A DNA stretch of 19,763 bases from an uncultured delta proteobacterium (GTDB taxonomy: Bacteria; Myxococcota_A; Polyangia; Polyangiales; JADJMO01): NCBI GenBank assembly GCA_903923175.1, contig CAIXWQ010000706.1, positions 1-19,763 on the forward strand. Reading direction: 5' to 3'. The position numbers and the translations under genes were made by a program. The notes below the pieces were generated by a model, which was not told where the DNA came from, searched no databases, and was given only the letters and a program-made list of their open reading frames with translations. Positions 4,527-19,763 of the stretch are shown here, piece after piece. Position 1 is the stretch's first letter. Every line of letters begins with the position of its first letter.

Positions 4527-5042
4527 TCACCGCGGCGGGGGAACGAGGACGTCGAGCTTCACGACCTCCCCGTTCGCCCGCTTCGCGCTCACCGTGACCG
4601 TCTTCCCGGTGAGCGCGGGATCGCTGTTCATGACGATGAGGCCACCCTTGCCGTTCGGCATGACGGTGAGCGCCGGGTTGGTCACTTCGTAGCCCACGTA
4701 GTCGGGCGCGCTCGAGGACGCGGGCGCGCCCGTCGTTGCGACCGGAGCCACGGCAGCCCCCGCGGAGCCCGTCGACACCGCCGCCGGCGCGCGCAGGCGC
4801 AGCTCGGCAACCTCGGCGCGCAACGGCGCGATCTCGCGGCGGAGGTCGTCCTGCGCGCGCACGAGCTCCGCGCGCTCCGAGGCCCACGACGCGCTGCCTG
4901 GGGGCGCATTCGGGCGGAGCGCCGCGTAGATCGACACGATCAGCGCGAGGGCGGACACGACGAGCGGGGCGAAGCGAGCGCGATCGGTGGGAGCGGCCAA
5001 GGGCCCACCATACCGCACGCCGCCGAGTCGCCGAAAAGGCAC
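4527..5042 (-). CDS. Hypothetical single-pass membrane protein with a coiled-coil segment and a small C-terminal beta-domain
   Basis: The start is GTG at 5040-5042, or GTG at 5016-5018; neither has a clear SD. A TM helix (FAPLVVSALALIVSIYAAL) is followed by a coiled coil (ERAELVRAQDDLRREIAPLRAEVAELRL), an Ala/Ser/Thr linker, and a conserved-looking C-terminal domain (YVGYEVTNPALTVMPNGKGGLIVMNSDPALTGKTVTVSAKR). The opposite-strand alternative here is an Arg/Pro-rich low-complexity frame, which favours this ORF. Confidence 0.45.
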   Translation of the reverse strand: MPFRRLGGVRYGGPLAAPTDRARFAPLVVSALALIVSIYAALRPNAPPGSASWASERAELVRAQDDLRREIAPLRAEVAELRLRAPAAVSTGSAGAAVAPVATTGAPASSSAPDYVGYEVTNPALTVMPNGKGGLIVMNSDPALTGKTVTVSAKRANGEVVKLDVLVPPPR

Positions 5043-12590: not shown

Positions 12591-13526
12591 ATGTCCGTGT
12601 CGATGGATGCGCGAGCAACGATGGCACGGCTCGGCTTCGACGAGCGCGAGCTCCAGAGTCGACGGGCGATCTTCGAGCTGCACGACGAGGACCTGCAGCG
12701 CCTCACCGCGATCCGCGCGATCGCGGAGCGCCACATGGCCGAAGTCGTGGACGGCTTCTACGCGCTCTTGCTCGGACACCCGGGCACGCGCCGCTTCCTG
12801 ACCGACGACGCCCAGGTCGCGCGGTTGAAGCGGACCCAGAGCGCGTACTTCCTGCAGCTCTTCGACGGCCGCTGCGATCTCCCCTACGTCGAGAACCGCA
12901 TCCGCGTCGGCGCGGTCCACGAGCGCATCGGGCTCGCGCCGAAGTGGTACATCGCGGCCTACCGGCGCTACCTCGCGCTGCTGCTCGAGCGCGTCGTCTT
13001 GGACATCCCCGATCGCGCCGAGGCGCTGGCGGCCTACCAGAGCCTCAAGAAGATCGTCGCCTTCGACATGTCGATCGCGATCGACACCTACATCGCGGCG
13101 AACCTCGAGTCGCTCGGGCGTCACCAGGCCGCGATCCGCGAGCTCTCGACCCCCGTCATCCGCGTGCACGAACGGCTCCTGCTGCTGCCGCTCGTCGGCG
13201 CCATCGACAGCCAGCGGGCGCAGCAGGTCATGGAGATGGTGCTGGTGCGCGTCATCGAGGAGAAGGCGCGCGCGATCATCATCGACATCGCCGGCGTGCC
13301 CGTCGTCGACACCAAGGTCGCCGATCACCTGCTCAAGACCACCGCCGCCGTGAAGTTGATCGGAGCGCAGACGATCTTGACCGGCATCAGCGCGCAAGTC
13401 GCGCGCACCATCGTGCAACTTGGCGTCGACATCTCCTCGATGCACACGCTCGCGCGCCTCTCCGAGGGCATCGAGCTGGGGCTCGAGCTCGTTGGCAAGA
13501 GAATCGCTCCGAAGGAGCCCTCGTGA
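12591..13526 (+). CDS. rsbR: RsbR-like stressosome sensor protein (N-terminal non-haem globin-type sensor domain + C-terminal STAS domain)
   Basis: ATG at 12591. The N-terminal 165 aa resemble the RsbR non-haem globin domain (RLTAIRAIAERHMAEVVDGFYALLLGHPGTRRFLTDDAQVARLKRTQSAYFLQLF…WYIAAYRRYLALL). The C-terminal STAS domain is PVIRVHERLLLLPLVGAIDSQRAQQVMEMVLVRVIEEKARAIIIDIAGVPVVDTKVADHLLKTTAAVKLIGAQTILTGISAQVARTIVQLGVD. The gene order with the next two genes is the canonical rsbR-rsbS-rsbT order. Confidence 0.85.
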   Translation: MSVSMDARATMARLGFDERELQSRRAIFELHDEDLQRLTAIRAIAERHMAEVVDGFYALLLGHPGTRRFLTDDAQVARLKRTQSAYFLQLFDGRCDLPYVENRIRVGAVHERIGLAPKWYIAAYRRYLALLLERVVLDIPDRAEALAAYQSLKKIVAFDMSIAIDTYIAANLESLGRHQAAIRELSTPVIRVHERLLLLPLVGAIDSQRAQQVMEMVLVRVIEEKARAIIIDIAGVPVVDTKVADHLLKTTAAVKLIGAQTILTGISAQVARTIVQLGVDISSMHTLARLSEGIELGLELVGKRIAPKEPS

Positions 13527-13891
13527 GCCGCAAGGGCCCGATCCCCATCCTGCGCGTCGGCAACGTGTTGCTGACGACCATCCACATCGACCTGCAGGAC
13601 ACGATCGCGGCCGCGTTCCAGGAGGACGTCCTCACCGAGATCGAGAAGACCGGCGCGCACGGCATCGTGGTCGACATCAGCGGCCTCGACGAGGTCGACA
13701 CCCACGTCGCGCGCATCCTCGCCGAGACGGGGGCGATGGCGCGGCTCATGGGCACCCGCGCGGTGCTCGTGGGGATGCGCCCCGAGGTCGCCGCGACGCT
13801 CGTGCGCATGGGCTACGCGATGGGCGCGATCGAGACGGCGCTGGACGTCGACGACGGCCTTCGCCTCCTCGGTGGAAGGCCGAAGGGCTGA
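13523..13891 (+). CDS. rsbS: RsbS-like single-STAS-domain stressosome scaffold protein
   Basis: GTG at 13523 overlaps the rsbR TGA in a GTGA overlap and follows AAGGAG (13512-13517). The 122-aa STAS protein is VSRKGPIPILRVGNVLLTTIHIDLQDTIAAAFQEDVLTEIEKTGAHGIVVDISGLDEVDTHVARILAETGAMARLMGTRAVLVGMRPEVAATLVRMGYAM… It corresponds to the C-terminal part of the longer ORF-track entry 12554..13891, whose N-terminal part is out-of-frame junk. Confidence 0.8.
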   Translation: MSRKGPIPILRVGNVLLTTIHIDLQDTIAAAFQEDVLTEIEKTGAHGIVVDISGLDEVDTHVARILAETGAMARLMGTRAVLVGMRPEVAATLVRMGYAMGAIETALDVDDGLRLLGGRPKG

Positions 13892-13898
13892 AGTGACC

Positions 13899-14330
13899 AT
13901 GGGCTCGCTGGCGTTCGAATCCCAGACGCTGTCGTCCGAGACGATGGCGATCGATCGCGAGGAGGACATCGTCCACGTGCGCAAGCGCGCGCGGATGCTG
14001 GCCCAGGCGCGCGGGTTCGACGCCTTCGCGTGCGCCGCGCTCACCACCGCGGCCTCGGAGCTCGCGCGCAACGTGTGGGTGCACGGCGGCGGCGGCCAGG
14101 CGACGCTCGAGGAGCTCTCCGACGGCAACCGCTTCGGCATCCGGATGGTCTTCCGCGATCAGGGCCCGGGGATCGCCGACCTCGAGCGCGCACTTCAGGG
14201 GGGCTACTCCACCGCGCGCTCGCTCGGCCTCGGGCTCTCCGGCACGCGGCGGCTCGTGGAGGACTTCGCCATCGACACGCGACCCGGTGAAGGGACGCGC
14301 GTCACGATCACCAAATGGACTCGTTTCTGA
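13899..14330 (+). CDS. rsbT: RsbT-like serine/threonine protein kinase (GHKL/anti-sigma-factor-kinase fold), the stressosome switch kinase
   Basis: ATG at 13899 follows GAAGGG (13882-13887). A GTG at 13893 is an alternative. The N-box is ASELARNVWVHG. The G-boxes are DQGPGI and SLGLGLSG. The size (about 143 aa) and its position after rsbS match RsbT. Confidence 0.85.
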   Translation: MGSLAFESQTLSSETMAIDREEDIVHVRKRARMLAQARGFDAFACAALTTAASELARNVWVHGGGGQATLEELSDGNRFGIRMVFRDQGPGIADLERALQGGYSTARSLGLGLSGTRRLVEDFAIDTRPGEGTRVTITKWTRF

Positions 14331-15343
14331 TCGAGCGGTGGGTCTCCCACCTCGATCGGCTGACGATCTACGACGAGGCCTCGGTCTCGGAAGCGCGGCA
14401 GCGCGCCCGGGCGGCGGCCGCCGCCGCGGGGATGTCCGCCGACGCGGCGGCGACGCTCGCGCTGATCGCGAGCGAGCTCGCCCACAACCAGCTACGCCAC
14501 GCGCGCGGCGGGCAGATCGCCGCGAGCGTCTTCGCCCGCGGCGACCGGCTCGGGGTCGAGATCGTCGCCGCCGATCGCGGCGGAGGGATCGCGGATCCGT
14601 CGGCGGCGATCGAGCACGGCGCCTCGACGGGCGGCGGCCTCGGCGCGGGGCTCGCGGGGGTGCTGAGGCTGGCCGACGAGGTCGATTTCGACATCCGCCT
14701 CGGCCAGGGGACTTGCGTCTGGGCCCGCAAGATCGAGGGCGCGAGCCACCGACGCGAGGTCGCCGTGCTCGGCCGCCCCGCCGACGGCGAGCGCGTCAGC
14801 GGCGACGACGCCTGCTTCGTGCGCGACGACGACACGCTCGTGCTCGCGCTCGCCGACGGCCTCGGGCACGGCCCCGACGCGAGCCTGGCGGCCCGCGCCG
14901 CGGTGGAGACGGTGCGCAACGCCCCCGCTCGCGCGCTCCCCGATCTGCTGCGCGAGGCAGGCGCCGCGCTCGTGCGGACGCGCGGCGCCGCGATGTCGAT
15001 CGTGCGCATCGACGAGCGGTTCGCCGAGCTGCGCCACGCGGGCGTCGGCAACGTCACGGCGCACGTGGTCTCCGCCGACTCGCAGCGCGCCTTCAGCGGC
15101 ATCTCGGCGGTGCTCGGCATGGAGCCGGCGCGCGCGCCGCTGCGTCGCGCTCGCACCGACGAGGATCACGCCCCCTTCGGCCCGTGGGACGTCGCGTTCC
15201 TGTTCACCGACGGCTTGACGACGCGCACGCGCCTGGAATCCGAGAGCGGCGCGCTGCGTCGCCATCCCGTCCTGATCGCCGACGCGCTGCTGAAGGCGTT
15301 CGGGCGCACGCACGACGACGCGACGGTCATCGTCGTCTCGTGA
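14315..15343 (+). CDS. Fusion protein: RsbT-paralogous GHKL Ser-kinase domain (residues about 1-150) + PP2C/SpoIIE-type (RsbX-like) phosphatase domain (about 152-342)
   Basis: ATG at 14315 lies 16 nt inside the rsbT 3' end. The N-terminal domain aligns motif-for-motif with the preceding RsbT (IYDEASVSEARQRARAAAAAAG… ASELAHNQLRHARGGQ, DRGGGIAD, STGGGLGAGLAG). The C-terminal PP2C motifs are LALADGLGHGPDAS, FLFTDGLT and HDDATVIVVS. Confidence 0.85.
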   Translation: MDSFLIERWVSHLDRLTIYDEASVSEARQRARAAAAAAGMSADAAATLALIASELAHNQLRHARGGQIAASVFARGDRLGVEIVAADRGGGIADPSAAIEHGASTGGGLGAGLAGVLRLADEVDFDIRLGQGTCVWARKIEGASHRREVAVLGRPADGERVSGDDACFVRDDDTLVLALADGLGHGPDASLAARAAVETVRNAPARALPDLLREAGAALVRTRGAAMSIVRIDERFAELRHAGVGNVTAHVVSADSQRAFSGISAVLGMEPARAPLRRARTDEDHAPFGPWDVAFLFTDGLTTRTRLESESGALRRHPVLIADALLKAFGRTHDDATVIVVS

Positions 15344-16550: not shown

Positions 16551-17516
16551 TCAGGGCGCCCGCAGCGGGCAGTGGCCGTCGAAGCAGAGATCGGAGCCGC
16601 TGCCCGGGTAGTAGTAGCCGATCACGAAGCACATCTCGTCGAGCGCGCTCTCACCGAACCCGATGCCGTTCGGCGTGTCGTTGAGGTAGTCGCACTGGTA
16701 GGTGAGCCCCGAGGTGCCGTCGAAGGTGAACTGCGGATCGACGGAGACGTAGCGAGGCTCCGCCCAGTTGGTGTCGTCGGCCAGCCGCGCGCCGGGCTGG
16801 CCGCGCGCCGCCGACGCCCACACCTGCGCCTCGGTGCCGTGCGAGTGCTGGTGCGTCGTGACGTAGAACATCTTCGTGCCGGGCTTGCCTGCCTGGAAAT
16901 GCTGGCCGGTGCTCCACGACTGGTTGGCGGGAATGTCGATCTGTCGCGTCCCCCAGAACAGCACGTCGGCCGCCTGGTAGCCGGTCGCCTGCGCCAGCGG
17001 GATCCCCTCGACCTTGAACGTCCCCGCGCCCTGCAGCGCCGTCTTGCCGGCGTTGATGTAGTGCGCCTCGATCTTGATCACCTGATCGGCCGCGAGGACC
17101 ACCCCGACGCCGGCGGGGAAGTCGAGCTCCGCCTTCTCCTTGCCGATGAGCGCGATCGGGGCCTCGTCGGTGCCGTTGATGAACGTATTCACGAACGGCG
17201 CGCACGGCGTCGGCGTCAGGTCCTCGTCGGTCGCCGTCGTGCGATAGACGATCATGTGATGCGAGCCGGGCGCGAGGTCGGCCGAGAGCTTGGTCGCGAG
17301 CAGCGGCTGGCCGGTGCCGATCTTCACGCGGATGCAGACCGTCTTCTCGTCGCCCGGCTGCAGGTCGATCGGGCCGATCGAGGCCTGCGCGGTCGTCGGC
17401 AGCGGGACGTCGGCCGCCGGCGCGCCGGACGACGAGCACGCGGGGAGCGCCGCGAGGCCCGAAAGGCAGAGCGACGCGAGCGCGGCGATCGAAGCGAGAC
17501 GCGAGGGCTTCGGCAT
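16551..17516 (-). CDS. Exported lipoprotein of unknown function; beta-rich, with His-cluster (HHMIVY, THQHSHGTE) and 8 Cys, possibly metal-binding
   Basis: Start is ATG at 17514-17516, giving the textbook lipoprotein signal MPKPSRLASIAALASLCLSGLAALPAC|SSS. The ORF-track 793-aa version (to 18932) adds an Arg/Glu/Asp/Pro-rich extension antisense to the nfeD/flotillin genes and is rejected. The mature protein has paired Cys (CIRVKIG…PC, CDYLND…C…C…C), which suggests disulfides. Confidence 0.75.
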   Translation of the reverse strand: MPKPSRLASIAALASLCLSGLAALPACSSSGAPAADVPLPTTAQASIGPIDLQPGDEKTVCIRVKIGTGQPLLATKLSADLAPGSHHMIVYRTTATDEDLTPTPCAPFVNTFINGTDEAPIALIGKEKAELDFPAGVGVVLAADQVIKIEAHYINAGKTALQGAGTFKVEGIPLAQATGYQAADVLFWGTRQIDIPANQSWSTGQHFQAGKPGTKMFYVTTHQHSHGTEAQVWASAARGQPGARLADDTNWAEPRYVSVDPQFTFDGTSGLTYQCDYLNDTPNGIGFGESALDEMCFVIGYYYPGSGSDLCFDGHCPLRAP

Positions 17517-17612
17517 GGGTACGGGCAGCTTAGCCGTATACCGGTCCGGGGCACCCTCGGGATCGCGTAAGGGGCGTTCGCCAGCGGTGCGCGCAGGTCG
17601 TACCCTCGTCGC

Positions 17613-18173
17613 GTGATCGCCGTCTACCTCGCGGCCTTGGTCGTCGCGCTCGGCGTCGTCGGGGTGCAGCTGCTCGGCGGGGCGCACGGTCACGACGGCT
17701 CGGTCGGCGCGCACGACGTCTCCGCCGGCGCGCACGGCGACCACGATGCCCTCTCGACCGCCTCGCTCTTCCTCTCGACGCGGTTCTGGACGTTCGCGCT
17801 GCTGGCGCTCGGGCTGGTCGGCACGCTCCTCTCGCTCCTGCGGCTCGCCTCGCCTTGGGCCATCGTCGTGCTGGCGATCACCAGCGGCGTCGTCTCGGGG
17901 CTCTTCGCCGCGCTCGTGTTCCGCGCGCTCCGGCGGTCCGACCGGTGGAGCGGGGCCTCGCTGAACGAGGCGATCGGCACCACCGCGCGCGTGCTCGTCC
18001 CCTGCGCCAAGGGGCGGGTCGGCAAGGTGCGCGCGCTCGTGAAGGGGGCGACCGTCGACATGCTCGCCATGACCGACGCCGAGGAGATCGAGATCGGCGC
18101 CCACGTGCTCATCGCGGCGATCGACGGGGGCATCGCGAAGGTCGAGCGCGCGCCGCTGGAGCTCGAGCCGTAG
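17613..18173 (+). CDS. nfeD: NfeD-like (short form, YuaF-type) membrane protein with a C-terminal OB-fold and an unusual His-rich loop
   Basis: Start is GTG at 17613, the first start in frame, with no obvious SD. There are two or three TM helices (IAVYLAALVVALGVVGVQLL; FWTFALLALGLVGTLLSLL; WAIVVLAITSGVVSGLFAALVF). The C-terminal beta-barrel motif is GTTARVLVPCAKGRVGKVRALVKGATVDMLAMTDAEEIEIGAHVLIAAIDGGIAKVE. The His-rich insert is GAHGHDGSVGAHDVSAGAHGDHD. The gene lies immediately upstream of a flotillin gene, the canonical NfeD-SPFH pairing. Confidence 0.75.
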   Translation: MIAVYLAALVVALGVVGVQLLGGAHGHDGSVGAHDVSAGAHGDHDALSTASLFLSTRFWTFALLALGLVGTLLSLLRLASPWAIVVLAITSGVVSGLFAALVFRALRRSDRWSGASLNEAIGTTARVLVPCAKGRVGKVRALVKGATVDMLAMTDAEEIEIGAHVLIAAIDGGIAKVERAPLELEP

Positions 18174-18374
18174 CGGCGGCGCGTGCGCTCGCGCGGGGCG
18201 CGCGCACCGCCGCTCGGTCGCCATGCCCGGTGGCGGTAGCGCAGGGTGCAACGCTTGCGTCGCCGAGCGCGTCGATCGGCCTCGTTTTCCAGGCCGTTCC
18301 GCGCGTCGCGCCGCGTGTATCCTCGCCGCATGGTCAAGCCCACGTCCGATGGGATCCCCGATCTCGGGATCGAC

Positions 18375-19667
18375 ATGCAGACGGCGACGCTCCTGCTCGG
18401 CGGCGCCGTCGCCGTCGTCATCGCGTTCGCGCTCTTCGTGTGGTTGATGAACCGGTTCCTCTACGTGTGCCGGCCGAACGAAATCCTGATCTTCGCGGGG
18501 CGAAAGCACCGATTGCCGGACGGCACCGAGGTCGGCTTCAAGATCCTGCACGGCGGTCGTGGCATCCGCACGCCGCTGCTGGAGACGGTCTCGCGCATGG
18601 ACATGCGCCTGTTCCCCGTCGAGGTCGCCGTCGCGAGCGCGTACTCGAAGGGGGGCATCCCGCTCACCGTCAACGCGATCGCGAACGTGAAGATCGCGAG
18701 CGACCCGCTGCTGGTGCGCAACGCGGTCGAGCGCTTCCTCGGCACCAGCATGCAGCAGATCGCGGTGGTCGCGCAGCAGACGCTCGAGGGCGTGCTGCGC
18801 GAGGTCCTCTCGCAGCTCACGCCGGAGGAGGTGAACCAGGATCGCCTCAAGTTCGCGGAGAGCCTCGTGCTGAACGCGAAGGACGACTTCGACAAGCTCG
18901 GCCTCGAGCTCGACGTGCTCAAGGTGCAGCACGTCGCCGACGATCAGCAGTACCTGCAGAACCTCGGGCGCGCCCGCATCGCCGGCATGATCCGCGACGC
19001 GCAGAACGCCGAGAACCAGGCCAACCAGCGCATCGCCGAGGAGCAGGCCGCCGCGCGGATGCGCGCCGAGTCGGCGCAGAAACAGGCCGAGGCGATGGTG
19101 CTGCAGAAGAAGAACGGCGTGCGCGCCGAGCTCGCCCGCCTCGAGGCGCAGGCCAAGTCGATCGAGAACGAGGCGGAGGTCGCCTCGCAGACGGCGCGCT
19201 CGTTCGCCGAGCAGGATCTCCAGGGGCGCCGCGCCGAGCTCGAGAAGCTCCGCCTCGAGTGCGACGTCGTGCTGCCCGCAGAGGCGCGGCGCATGGCCGA
19301 GGAGGCGAAGGCGCGCGGCGCGGCGGCGCCGACCGTCGAGCAGGGCAAGGCGGCGGCGGAGGCGCTCACGATGGTCGCCGCCGAGTGGCAGGCGGCCGGC
19401 AAGGACGGGCGCGACCTCTACGTGCTCAACCAGCTCCGGAGCTTCGTCGAGTCGGCCATCACCCGCGTCGGACAGACCGAGATCAAGGAGCTGCAGCTGG
19501 TCGACGGCGGCGACGGCAAGGCGCTCGCCTCGCTGTTCGCGGCCTTCCCAAACGCGGTCGCCCGCGTGATGGAGGCGACCGGCGACGCGATCGGCGTCGA
19601 CATCGACGCGCTCATCGGATCCTCGCTCTCGAAGAGCGCCAAGAACGCCAAGAACGAGGTGCGGTGA
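18375..19667 (+). CDS. Flotillin-like SPFH/Band-7 domain protein (FloT/YuaG type) with C-terminal EA-rich coiled coil
   Basis: ATG at 18375 gives MQTATLLLGGAVAVVIAFALFVWLMNRFLYVCRPNEILIFAG, the typical flotillin N-terminal membrane hairpin followed by the PNE…G motif. The SPFH core is GIPLTVNAIANVKIASDPLLVRNAVERFLG. A long Ala/Glu/Gln-rich coiled coil follows (AEEQAAARMRAESAQKQAEAMVLQKK…). Upstream Met/GTG codons in the ORF-track version (from 18246) add an Arg-rich tail with no RBS. Confidence 0.85.
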   Translation: MQTATLLLGGAVAVVIAFALFVWLMNRFLYVCRPNEILIFAGRKHRLPDGTEVGFKILHGGRGIRTPLLETVSRMDMRLFPVEVAVASAYSKGGIPLTVNAIANVKIASDPLLVRNAVERFLGTSMQQIAVVAQQTLEGVLREVLSQLTPEEVNQDRLKFAESLVLNAKDDFDKLGLELDVLKVQHVADDQQYLQNLGRARIAGMIRDAQNAENQANQRIAEEQAAARMRAESAQKQAEAMVLQKKNGVRAELARLEAQAKSIENEAEVASQTARSFAEQDLQGRRAELEKLRLECDVVLPAEARRMAEEAKARGAAAPTVEQGKAAAEALTMVAAEWQAAGKDGRDLYVLNQLRSFVESAITRVGQTEIKELQLVDGGDGKALASLFAAFPNAVARVMEATGDAIGVDIDALIGSSLSKSAKNAKNEVR

Positions 19668-19763
19668 TGGGCGGCGTCATCGTGGTGCTGGGGCTGACGG
19701 CCCTCATCGTCTTCCTGCTCGTCTCGTTCATGGTGCGACGCCTGCTCTACGTGAGCGCGCCGA
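19667..19763 (+). CDS. 5' end of a second, paralogous SPFH/flotillin-like gene (3'-truncated by the window edge)
   Basis: ATG at 19667 overlaps the upstream TGA (TGATG) and follows GAGGTG (19656-19661). The 32 visible codons, MGGVIVVLGLTALIVFLLVSFMVRRLLYVSAP, mirror the N-terminus of the preceding flotillin (…FALFVWLMNRFLYVCRP…). Confidence 0.55.
   Translation, partial: MGGVIVVLGLTALIVFLLVSFMVRRLLYVSAP

What the first reader, a model, noticed from the sequence alone, without database searches (positions are those of the whole stretch)
17613..19763. nfeD-flotillin-flotillin operon, with a His-rich metal-binding-like loop in NfeD and two tandem, translationally coupled SPFH paralogues
NfeD-SPFH pairing is the canonical membrane-microdomain scaffold module. 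Two things stand out here. First, a GAHGHDGSVGAHDVSAGAHGDHD insert (8 His and 5 Asp in 23 residues) sits between the first and second TM helices of NfeD. Second, a second flotillin-like gene starts at the stop codon of the first (TGATG) and has a near-identical N-terminal membrane hairpin. The tandem paralogues suggest a hetero-oligomeric flotillin scaffold. The His/Asp loop suggests metal-dependent regulation, which I have not seen described for NfeD.
Basis: partly seen in the sequence, partly recalled or inferred. Interest (0 to 1): 0.55.

Follow-up and report, generated by a model that had tools for sequence, protein, structure and literature searches.

The report
NfeD plus two flotillins, His/Asp loop
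This is an ordinary bacterial membrane-scaffold operon of a known type (a small NfeD membrane protein followed by two flotillin paralogues), but its NfeD belongs to a large, undescribed subfamily whose hallmark is a floppy loop rich in histidine and aspartate, of unknown function.

Summary
The genes are real. They are a short NfeD (17613-18173), a flotillin (18330-19667) and a second flotillin starting in the TGATG overlap at 19667. That second gene is cut by the window end but is 420 aa in an orthologous contig. Some details were wrong: the loop has 5 His and 4 Asp, not 8 and 5, and the two N-terminal anchors are about 34% identical, not near-identical.

The nfeD-flotillin-flotillin order recurs in about 80 genomes, mostly Polyangia, with some Acidobacteriota. 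The flotillin-flotillin junction is a stop/start overlap in about 70 of 81 loci. Hinderhofer et al. described this operon type, NfeD2 with one or two SPFH2 genes, in 2009, so the tandem pair is not new.

The His/Asp segment is not a private insert. Across 119 distinct loops, length varies from 15 to 86 aa but composition holds (G 24%, D 20%, A 17%, H 12%, R 0.3%), and the dipeptide order HD is strongly favoured. AlphaFold2 predicts the loop to be disordered. With three membrane helices it must lie on the same side as the OB-fold domain, which I infer is the flotillin side. Bacillus YuaF lacks it. I found no paper describing it.

Metal or proton binding is plausible but untested, and gene neighbourhoods give it no support.

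The parts
17613..18173 (+). Short NfeD-family gene (186 aa, GTG start): three membrane helices followed by a C-terminal OB-fold
   Evidence: ORF. An identical protein is called on 3 public contigs. 51 homologues all start at the same position. Pfam NfeD scores 22.5 bits, below the cut-off, but 39 of 51 family members hit it at E<=0.01. The family profile hits YuaF 2k14 at 4e-5. The AF2 model has pLDDT 86, and its top Foldseek hits are all NfeD proteins.
17616..17681 (+). Membrane helix 1 (residues 2-23)
   Evidence: AF2 helix 2-23. Kyte-Doolittle average is 2.0-2.35. No charged residues occur here across the family.
17679..17747 (+). His/Asp/Gly/Ala-rich disordered loop (residues 23-45; 5 His, 4 Asp; three HD dipeptides)
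   Evidence: Residue counts. pLDDT is below 50 for residues 29-41 and there is no secondary structure at 24-44. Family-wide composition and HD order bias.
17691..17736 (+). 21-nt tandem repeat, 2.2 copies (88% match), encoding HDxSxGA twice. It is a recent in-frame duplication inside the loop.
   Evidence: Tandem Repeats Finder, score 71.
17778..17921 (+). Membrane helices 2 and 3 (residues 56-76 and 81-103), a tight helical hairpin. Invariant Arg57 sits at its start and a basic stretch (RALRRSDR) follows it.
   Evidence: AF2 helices 56-76 and 81-112. Invariant R57. On average 2.9 Lys+Arg follow helix 3, against 0.3 in the loop.
17967..18152 (+). C-terminal OB-fold beta-barrel, the NfeD partner-binding domain (residues about 119-180)
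   Evidence: Pfam NfeD match at residues 119-179. AF2 strands 124-179 have pLDDT 93-98. Foldseek matches to 3wwv, 3cp0, 2exd and 2k14.
18167..18218 (+). GC-rich RNA hairpin overlapping the nfeD stop codon, in the 156-nt spacer before the first flotillin. It may be an attenuator or a stability element.
   Evidence: The fold of 18165-18335 gives -106.6 kcal/mol, z=-3.3. No T-tract terminator was found. The stem is not conserved in L003.
18330..19667 (+). Flotillin paralogue 1 (445 aa). Membrane anchor at about residues 19-40 (nt 18384-18449), SPFH/Band_7 domain at residues 47-240 (nt 18468-19049), then an Ala/Glu/Gln-rich helical region.
   Evidence: Band_7 5.5e-19. Flotillin-1 9bq2_B 3.8e-26 over residues 45-330. 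JGI names the orthologues 'flotillin'. The ATG at 18330 is the start used in public gene calls, and a 20-nt block just upstream is conserved in L003 and L006.
19665..19669 (+). TGATG stop/start overlap between the two flotillin genes (translational coupling junction)
   Evidence: Sequence. The same junction type (TGATG, or ATGA/GTGA) is found in about 70 of 81 related loci.
19667..19763 (+). 5' end of flotillin paralogue 2 (first 32 codons, membrane anchor), cut off by the end of the window
   Evidence: 30 of 32 residues are identical to the N-terminus of the 420-aa Band_7 protein of L003. That protein hits flotillin-1 at 2.8e-37.

Best explanation
The region is a conserved three-gene membrane-scaffold module: a short NfeD protein followed by two ancient flotillin paralogues.

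Shown:
- NfeD has three membrane helices and a C-terminal OB-fold of the NfeD type.
- Both SPFH proteins are flotillin-type.
- The two flotillin genes are joined by a stop/start overlap in most genomes that carry the module.

Inferred:
- The two flotillins are made in equal amounts and co-assemble into one alternating ring or dome on the cytoplasmic face of the inner membrane. Eukaryotic flotillin-1/2 does this as 22+22 subunits, and HflK/C is a comparable bacterial pair.
- The NfeD OB-fold docks onto that ring.

The His/Asp-rich segment is a family-wide feature. It is a disordered loop between helices 1 and 2 that varies in length and carries repeated G-H-D motifs. With three membrane helices, it must lie on the same side of the membrane as the OB-fold. 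I infer that this is the flotillin side.

My preferred reading of the loop, which is inference only, is a weak, multivalent cation-binding element. It would bind transition metals through His and Asp, or protons through His. Dozens of copies would be concentrated at the membrane patch under the flotillin assembly, where they could tune assembly or the local ionic environment.
For: NfeD identity:
- The family profile hits YuaF, and 39 of 51 members hit PF01957.
- The AF2 model has pLDDT 86 with helices 2-23, 56-76 and 81-112 and a beta-barrel at 124-179.
- Its top Foldseek hits are YbbJ in the QmcA-YbbJ cage, YuaF, 1510-C, 3cp0 and 2exd.

Flotillin identity:
- The only solved-structure hits are flotillin-1 and flotillin-2, at E=1e-26 to 1e-37.
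- Both proteins carry Band_7.

Paired paralogues:
- They are 38% identical over their full length.
- Each keeps its own orthologues at 46-91% identity while cross-identity stays at 34-45% in about 80 genomes.
- The junction is a stop/start overlap in about 70 of 81 loci.
- nfeD lies upstream on the same strand in 72 of 74 loci.

Loop (119 distinct loops unless stated):
- His is 12.2% in the loop against 0.9% in the rest of the protein. Asp is 19.6% against 3.0%. Arg is 0.3% against 5.9%.
- The dipeptide HD occurs 199 times against 83 expected (z=15), while DH occurs 89 against 83. GH occurs 184 against 111.
- 107 of 119 loops have at least 2 His.
- The same composition holds in the top 130 parsed representatives of a family with 4875 clusters at 50% identity.
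- AF2 predicts the loop to be disordered.

Topology:
- About 3 Lys+Arg follow helix 3, and Arg57 is invariant.
- The NfeD OB-fold is reported to be cytosolic and to bind flotillin in S. aureus (PMC11222466).
Against: - No experiment or computation here shows that the two flotillins co-assemble, that NfeD binds them, or that the loop binds anything.
- The window protein's own Pfam NfeD score is below the curated threshold.
- Pfam's flotillin C-terminal model (PF15975) was not detected, and the NCBIfam FloT equivalog score is far below its cut-off (125 against 700).
- No metal-homeostasis genes are conserved near the module.
- Some family members have loops with no His at all (3 of 119) or loops dominated by DADADA runs. 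This fits a generic polyanionic linker as well as it fits a His-based metal site.
- Part of the window's His count comes from a recent 21-nt duplication.
- The shuffle statistics treat related sequences as independent, so the z-scores are inflated.
Confidence: 0.7

Rival explanations
1. The loop is a charge- or pH-based disordered spacer with no specific metal role. It would be a polyanionic brush that keeps helix 1 apart from the helix 2/3 hairpin or repels anionic lipids. His protonation near neutral pH might switch its net charge.
For: - Loop length ranges from 15 to 86 residues and the sequence is hardly alignable.
- Some members are almost pure Asp/Ala or Asp/Phe runs with few His (L054, L061, L067, P0144).
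- AF2 predicts disorder.
- Acidic residues far outnumber basic ones (842 Asp+Glu against 75 Lys+Arg).
- No metal genes are conserved nearby.
Against: A pure charge spacer does not explain 12% His, the strong preference for the order G-H-D over D-H or H-G, or the depletion of DD and HH pairs. These point to a spaced His-Asp motif rather than bulk charge.
Confidence: 0.3
2. The loop is neutral low-complexity sequence produced by replication slippage in a 73% GC genome, tolerated because the linker is unconstrained.
For: - A 21-nt tandem duplication lies inside the window's loop.
- DADADA-type runs and large length differences occur between close relatives.
Against: - Neutral GC-rich linkers should be rich in Arg and Pro. 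Here Arg is 0.3% and Pro 2.3%, while His is 13-fold enriched over the rest of the protein.
- The composition and the HD motif persist in about 120 distinct loops from genomes whose NfeD proteins are only 35-45% identical.
Confidence: 0.1
3. The two flotillin paralogues do not co-assemble. They form separate homo-oligomeric scaffolds with different clients, as the unlinked FloA and FloT of Bacillus subtilis are thought to do.
For: - Homo-oligomeric SPFH cages exist. QmcA-YbbJ forms a cage of 26 heterodimers with a single SPFH species (as summarised in PMC13086221).
- The paralogues are only 38% identical.
Against: - The two genes always occur together, in the same order, with an overlapping stop/start in about 70 of 81 loci. 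That arrangement is typical of subunits needed in fixed ratio.
- All well-studied adjacent or paired SPFH paralogues (HflK/C, prohibitin-1/2, flotillin-1/2, erlin-1/2) form mixed rings. This point is established knowledge, and PDB 9l3g lists 22 chains of each flotillin.
Confidence: 0.25

Closest known systems
NfeD2-SPFH2 (p-flotillin) operons of Hinderhofer et al. 2009, including the cyanobacterial form with two SPFH2 genes (Syc1604_d with Syc1607_d/Syc1608_d) and B. subtilis yuaF-yuaG (NfeD2-FloT)
   Same: - A short NfeD-like protein with three N-terminal hydrophobic stretches and a C-terminal beta-barrel, encoded upstream of one or two flotillin-type SPFH genes (PMC2636767).
- The family profile here hits the YuaF soluble domain.
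   Different: - Bacillus YuaF has only a short, non-acidic link between helices 1 and 2 (FGDVFAGLSEGIPLLNP), with no His/Asp-rich loop.
- The flotillins here score far below the FloT equivalog cut-off.
- The duplication here is conserved across Polyangia and some Acidobacteriota. Whether it is the same event as the cyanobacterial one was not tested.
Eukaryotic flotillin-1/flotillin-2 complex (PDB 9bq2, 9l3g)
   Same: - These are the best and only solved-structure matches for both paralogues, covering the SPFH domain and the following helical region.
- Both systems are a pair of paralogues expected to build one ring.
   Different: - Both bacterial paralogues match flotillin-1 better than flotillin-2, so the duplication is independent.
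- The bacterial proteins have an N-terminal transmembrane-type anchor and an NfeD partner, which eukaryotes lack.
HflK/HflC
   Same: It works alike at the gene level: two adjacent SPFH paralogues expected to form a mixed cage.
   Different: - It is a different SPFH subfamily. There was no HflK/C hit among solved structures at E<=0.01.
- HflK/C has no NfeD partner (PMC2636767).
- From my own knowledge, HflK/C faces the periplasm and holds FtsH.
E. coli YqiJ-YqiK (DUF1449 protein plus flotillin-family protein)
   Same: - The layout is the same: a small three-helix membrane protein with a C-terminal OB-fold, upstream of a flotillin-family gene.
- YqiJ also has a His/Asp-containing stretch right after helix 1 ([22 protein letters not shown]).
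   Different: - There is no detectable sequence relationship to YqiJ (hhalign probability 1.4%; no YqiJ_N or YqiJ_OB Pfam hit in 51 members).
- YqiK is only 21% identical to flotillin-1 here.
- The E. coli operon has a single flotillin gene.
His-rich cytoplasmic loops of CDF (ZnT/CzcD) and ZIP metal transporters
   Same: The resemblance is from memory only: disordered, His- and Asp-rich loops between membrane helices on the cytoplasmic side.
   Different: There is no homology, and the protein here is not a transporter. Metal binding by this loop is untested.

Membership tests
NfeD family (short form, NfeD2/YuaF-like) | C-terminal five-stranded OB-fold beta-barrel (Pfam PF01957, partner-binding domain) | tested here: met
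   The window protein scores 22.5 bits, below the 29.1 cut-off. However, 39 of 51 family members hit PF01957 at E<=0.01. The family profile hits YuaF 2k14 at 4.3e-5 and 2exd at 0.019. AF2 predicts a barrel at 124-179 with pLDDT 93-98. The top six Foldseek PDB hits are all NfeD proteins.
NfeD family (short form, NfeD2/YuaF-like) | Three N-terminal hydrophobic membrane segments preceding the soluble domain | tested here: met
   AF2 helices 2-23, 56-76 and 81-112. Hydropathy shows three peaks.
NfeD family (short form, NfeD2/YuaF-like) | Encoded next to, and upstream of, an SPFH gene | tested here: met
   True in the window. nfeD is on the same strand and upstream in 72 of 74 related loci.
NfeD family (short form, NfeD2/YuaF-like) | Physical binding of the OB-fold to the SPFH partner | not testable with these tools
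   Known for S. aureus FloA-NfeD (PMC11222466). Not tested for this protein.
NfeD long form (ClpP-type protease plus NfeD) | N-terminal ClpP-like serine protease domain | tested here: not met
   The protein is 186 aa and has no protease domain hit in Pfam or NCBIfam.
Flotillin / SPFH2 (p-flotillin) | SPFH/Band 7 domain | tested here: met
   PF01145 at 5.5e-19 for paralogue 1 and 2e-18 for the paralogue-2 orthologue.
Flotillin / SPFH2 (p-flotillin) | Closer to flotillins than to stomatin, prohibitin, HflK/C or erlin | tested here: met
   The only PDB sequence hits at E<=0.01 are flotillin-1 and flotillin-2, at 1e-17 to 1e-37. The best NCBIfam hit is FloT. JGI names the orthologues 'flotillin'.
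Flotillin / SPFH2 (p-flotillin) | Long helical 'flotillin domain' and C-terminal oligomerisation region after the SPFH domain | tested here: inconclusive
   Alignments to flotillin-1 extend to about residue 283-296 of flotillin-1, and the region is Ala/Glu/Gln-rich. Pfam Flot (PF15975) was not detected, and no structure was predicted for these proteins.
Flotillin / SPFH2 (p-flotillin) | N-terminal membrane anchor | tested here: met
   Read directly from the sequence: a 22-residue hydrophobic stretch at residues 19-40 of paralogue 1 and at residues 3-22 of paralogue 2, each followed by Arg. Whether these are hairpins or spanning helices was not resolved.
FloT equivalog (NCBIfam NF058507) | Score at or above the curated equivalog cut-off | tested here: not met
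   125.6 bits against a cut-off of 700.
YqiJ / DUF1449 | Match to the YqiJ_N (PF21001) or YqiJ_OB (PF07290) models | tested here: not met
   No such hit in any of 51 family members at E<=0.01. hhalign against E. coli YqiJ gives probability 1.4%.
HflK/HflC | Sequence membership in the HflK/C subfamily | tested here: not met
   No HflK/C chain appears among PDB hits at E<=0.01.
Anti-phage defence systems containing SPFH proteins | Match to a PADLOC model | tested here: not met
   No hits for NfeD, either flotillin or the downstream 160-aa ORF.

The most novel reading that the evidence does not exclude
The repeated G-H-D motifs of the NfeD loop form a real metal- or proton-sensing device. Dozens of copies would be concentrated on the membrane patch enclosed by a mixed flotillin-1/flotillin-2 dome. 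Assembly or client capture by a bacterial flotillin scaffold would then be switched by cytoplasmic transition-metal level or pH. That regulatory principle has not been described for any SPFH/NfeD system.
Probability: 0.15. Interest if true: 0.55.

Novelty: new variant of a known kind. Interest (0 to 1): 0.35.

Why it matters
Bacterial flotillin scaffolds are widely studied, but the role of their NfeD partners is still unclear. This work defines a large NfeD subfamily: 4875 sequence clusters at E<=0.001, of which 446 are at E<=1e-30. The subfamily is found mainly in Polyangia and some Acidobacteriota.

In the roughly 80 genome loci examined, it is always paired with two translationally coupled flotillin paralogues, and it is marked by a conserved His/Asp-rich disordered loop on the flotillin side of the membrane.

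If the loop binds metals or senses pH, it would give a concrete, testable handle on how a flotillin assembly is regulated. If it does not, the module is simply one more example of a known operon type. Cultured carriers exist for experiments: Polyangium fumosum DSM 14668, Chondromyces apiculatus DSM 436 and Minicystis rosea DSM 24000.

Tried and rejected
- Fetching DNA downstream of the window from contigs that encode the identical proteins. The only longer contig (3577 bp, ERZ1426535) has no DNA on file. I solved this with the 82%-identical orthologous contig L003.
- Scanning genomes with the NfeD alignment. I used a flotillin alignment instead.
- Retrieving full-length B. subtilis YuaF by homology search from the PDB fragment. 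Only truncated entries came back. I reconstructed the N-terminus from a frameshifted Bacillus assembly. It has no His/Asp loop, which corrected a false memory of mine.
- Homology between this NfeD and E. coli YqiJ. Rejected.
- A role in anti-phage defence. There were no PADLOC hits.
- A link to metal homeostasis through gene neighbourhood. The copper-monooxygenase-like lipoprotein upstream is kept only in the nearest relatives. Clustering of all flanking ORFs in 81 loci gave mevalonate-pathway genes, a GlnE-like gene and a possible kinase, but no metal genes.
- A conserved terminator between nfeD and the first flotillin. The strong hairpin in the window is absent from L003, and no T-tract terminator or sigma-70 promoter was found.
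- Reading the QmcA-YbbJ cryo-EM paper and the Dempwolff 2012 NfeD2 paper. Neither is held in the library.
- Literature on a His-rich NfeD loop. No paper in the library holds both 'NfeD' and 'histidine-rich', and I found no myxobacterial flotillin study.
Full report
**What is in the sequence**

The window is 72.8% GC. On the + strand there are three relevant ORFs:
- 17613-18173, a GTG start and 186 aa.
- An ORF whose publicly called form is 18330-19667, 445 aa.
- An ATG at 19667 that shares one base with the preceding TGA (TGATG) and opens an ORF running off the window after 32 codons.

The 793-aa ORF on the opposite strand (16551-18932) is a high-GC artefact. Only its 3' part (16560-17519) is a real gene.

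It has 5 His and 4 Asp, not 8 and 5. The two flotillin N-terminal anchors share 11 of 32 residues with a gap, so they are not near-identical.

**Identity of the first gene**

- Pfam NfeD matches residues 119-179 at 22.5 bits, below the cut-off of 29.1.
- 51 homologues were found. JGI labels many of them 'membrane protein implicated in regulation of membrane protease activity', and NCBI names one of them 'NfeD family protein'.
- 39 of the 51 hit PF01957 at E<=0.01. None hits the YqiJ models.
- The family profile hits the YuaF soluble domain at 4.3e-5.
- An AlphaFold2 model built on the family alignment has mean pLDDT 86. It shows helices 2-23, 45-53, 56-76 and 81-112 and a five-stranded barrel at 124-179.
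- The model's six best PDB matches are all NfeD proteins: YbbJ in the QmcA-YbbJ cage, YuaF, 1510-C, 3cp0, MTH693 and 2exd.

It is therefore a short-form NfeD of the YuaF/NfeD2 kind. It has no protease domain.

**Identity of the SPFH genes**

- The 445-aa protein has Band_7 (5.5e-19).
- Among all solved structures it hits only flotillin-1 and flotillin-2 (3.8e-26 and below).
- NCBIfam's best match is FloT, but at 125 bits against a cut-off of 700. It is flotillin-type but not a FloT equivalog.
- JGI calls its close orthologues 'flotillin'.

The third ORF can be completed from an orthologous metagenome contig, L003:
- L003's NfeD is 82% identical and its flotillin-1 is 96% identical to the window's.
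- There the gene encodes 420 aa with Band_7 (2e-18).
- It hits flotillin-1 at 2.8e-37.
- It is 38% identical to paralogue 1 over its full length.
- Its first 32 residues match the window's at 30 of 32.

A contig with identical nfeD and flotillin-1 carries this gene at 333 aa or more.

**Conservation of the module**

A genome scan returned 80 loci. Most are Polyangiaceae, Polyangia or other Myxococcota, including:
- Polyangium fumosum DSM 14668
- P. jinanense
- Chondromyces apiculatus DSM 436
- Minicystis rosea DSM 24000
- Sandaracinaceae

There are also several Acidobacteriota (Vicinamibacteria, Holophagales).

Findings across these loci:
- nfeD, flotillin-1 and flotillin-2 occur in that order in nearly all loci long enough to show it.
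- Orthologue identity is 46-91%, while cross-paralogue identity stays at 34-45%. The duplication is therefore old and both copies are kept.
- The flotillin-1/flotillin-2 junction is a 4-nt (ATGA/GTGA) or 1-nt (TGATG) overlap in about 70 of 81 loci.
- nfeD is upstream on the same strand in 72 of 74 loci, but with a variable spacer of median about 150 nt.
- In the window the spacer is 156 nt and begins with a strong hairpin. That hairpin is not conserved in L003.
- Other neighbours are not conserved beyond the closest relatives.

**The loop**

The segment between helices 1 and 2 varies in length from 15 to 86 residues and is barely alignable, but its composition is constant. In 119 distinct loops:

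| Residue | Loop | Rest of the protein |
|---|---|---|
| Gly | 24% | 11.4% |
| Asp | 19.6% | 3.0% |
| Ala | 16.7% | 13.2% |
| His | 12.2% | 0.9% |
| Arg | 0.3% | 5.9% |

- 107 of the 119 loops have two or more His, and 3 have none.
- Residue order is not random. HD occurs 199 times against 83 expected from within-loop shuffles, while DH occurs 89 against 83.
- GH is enriched, HG is not, and DD and HH are depleted.
- The sequences are related, so these z-scores overstate significance. The direction is nevertheless clear: the unit is G-H-D-x, seen in its purest form as GHDAGHDVGHDTGHD in L048.
- A whole-library profile search found 4875 clusters at E<=0.001 and 446 at E<=1e-30. The 130 parsable loops among the top 150 representatives have the same composition: D 20.7%, G 19%, A 16%, H 9.5%.
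- In the window, a 21-nt tandem duplication (17691-17736) encodes HDxSxGA twice. Slippage therefore contributes to length change.
- AF2 gives the loop pLDDT below 50 and no secondary structure.

The loop is absent from Bacillus YuaF, whose helix 1-2 link is FGDVFAGLSEGIPLLNP (reconstructed from L087). E. coli YqiJ has a weaker His/Asp stretch in the same place, but shows no detectable homology.

**Topology**

This part is inferred. With three spanning helices, the helix 1-2 loop and the C-terminal OB-fold must be on the same side of the membrane. About three Lys/Arg follow helix 3, almost none are in the loop, and Arg57 is invariant at the start of helix 2. By the positive-inside rule the C-terminus is cytoplasmic. 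The S. aureus NfeD OB-fold is described as cytosolic and as binding FloA (PMC11222466). The His/Asp loop therefore most likely faces the cytoplasm, next to the flotillin assembly.

**Mechanism**

Shown: the gene identities, the fold of NfeD, the conserved order and overlap, and the loop's conserved composition and disorder.

Inferred:
- The two flotillins are made in a fixed ratio and build one mixed ring or dome. PDB 9l3g lists 22 chains each of flotillin-1 and flotillin-2, and HflK/C and the prohibitins behave alike (my own knowledge).
- NfeD docks by its OB-fold, with its helices in the enclosed membrane patch.
- The G-H-D loops form a dense His/carboxylate layer there.

I consider weak multivalent binding of transition metals or protons the most likely role (about 0.3). 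A non-specific polyanionic or pH-responsive spacer is about equally likely. Neutral slippage is unlikely, given the Arg depletion and the His enrichment. Gene context gives no support to a metal link.

**Comparison with what is known**

Hinderhofer et al. 2009 already described NfeD homologues sharing an operon with one or two SPFH2 (flotillin-type) genes. They gave a cyanobacterial example of the duplicated form, and they also described NfeD1a-SPFH1a.1-SPFH1a.2 operons (PMC2636767). The tandem pair and the NfeD pairing are therefore a known kind.

No paper in the searchable library combines 'NfeD' with 'histidine-rich', and I found no study of myxobacterial flotillins. The loop-bearing subfamily appears to be undescribed, although the library does not cover most subscription journals.

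**Verdict**

This is a real and well-conserved operon of a known type. The one point of novelty is the family-wide His/Asp loop. It is worth a bench test, but at present it is only a compositional observation. Interest 0.35; new variant of a known kind.

Noticed in passing
window 12603-15340 (+): A stressosome-like partner-switching cluster with four genes:
- a protoglobin-STAS protein (RsbR-like, 12603-13520);
- a single-STAS protein (13523-13891);
- an RsbT-like HATPase_c_2 kinase (13899-14330);
- a fusion of a kinase-like domain with a SpoIIE/PP2C phosphatase (14315-15340).

It is preceded by a PAS-GerE regulator and a histidine kinase on the opposite strand. The cluster is kept only in the closest relatives (L003-L006).
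   Followed up: partly
window 16560-17519 (-): A lipoprotein-like gene (signal peptide ending in ...LPAC) with a copper type II monooxygenase C-terminal domain (PF03712, 29.5 bits). It is transcribed divergently from nfeD across a 93-nt spacer. The adjacency is found only in the nearest relatives, so it gives no support to a metal link for the NfeD loop.
   Followed up: partly
L015, L017, L020, L024, L028, L030, L034, L047, L048, L051, L052, L055, L056, L060, L066 (upstream of nfeD): In 15 related Polyangiaceae loci the module lies downstream of mevalonate-pathway genes on the same strand. In 11 of them the HMG-CoA reductase gene ends within about 150 nt of nfeD. In L017, L020, L034 and L066 the gap is several hundred to about 1200 nt. 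The genes are a GHMP (mevalonate) kinase, diphosphomevalonate decarboxylase and HMG-CoA reductase. This suggests a link between isoprenoid lipid synthesis and flotillin scaffolds in these myxobacteria. The window itself does not have this arrangement.
   Followed up: partly
L027, L029, L032, L033, L035-L038, L041, L042, L044 (upstream of nfeD): In another set of about 11 loci (Polyangium and relatives) a GlnE-like adenylyltransferase gene ends just before nfeD. In L019, L049 and L075 it lies further away or on the other side. E. coli also has glnE about 4 kb from yqiJK (L086). This is probably coincidence.
   Followed up: no
window 18167-18218 (+): A very stable GC-rich hairpin overlaps the nfeD stop codon. 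There is no T-tract after it, and the stem is missing in the 82%-identical orthologous locus L003. It could set the NfeD:flotillin expression ratio or be a strain-specific insertion.
   Followed up: partly
window 18308-18332 (+); L003 10690-10714; L006 about 4980-5003: A block of about 20 nt (CGTGTATCCTCGCCGC) immediately before the flotillin-1 ATG is conserved in three loci whose surrounding spacer has diverged. It contains no Shine-Dalgarno-like sequence. It may be a promoter or translation signal for flotillin-1.
   Followed up: no
L062 4396-4938 and L077 4194-4676: In two termite-gut Polyangiaceae MAGs, nfeD lies on the opposite strand and is divergent from the two flotillin genes. Co-transcription of nfeD with the flotillins is therefore not obligatory.
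   Followed up: no
L017, L023, L024, L028, L030, L034, L047, L051, L052, L055 (just downstream of flotillin-2): In 14 loci, a conserved ORF of about 356-380 aa on the same strand follows flotillin-2 (the 10 listed above are those I recorded). It has an H-box-like motif (HDVANAL), which suggests a histidine kinase. My one Pfam check used wrong coordinates and returned nothing, so this is unconfirmed.
   Followed up: no
L086 2209-2838 (E. coli K-12 yqiJ): YqiJ, the partner of the flotillin-family protein YqiK, has a His/Asp-containing stretch ([22 protein letters not shown]) directly after its first membrane helix. This is the same position as the loop studied here, although there is no detectable sequence homology.
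   Followed up: partly
L003 13320-13802 (+): A 160-aa ORF with no Pfam or PADLOC match follows flotillin-2 in the closest relatives only (L003, and partly L006). It lies beyond the end of the window.
   Followed up: partly
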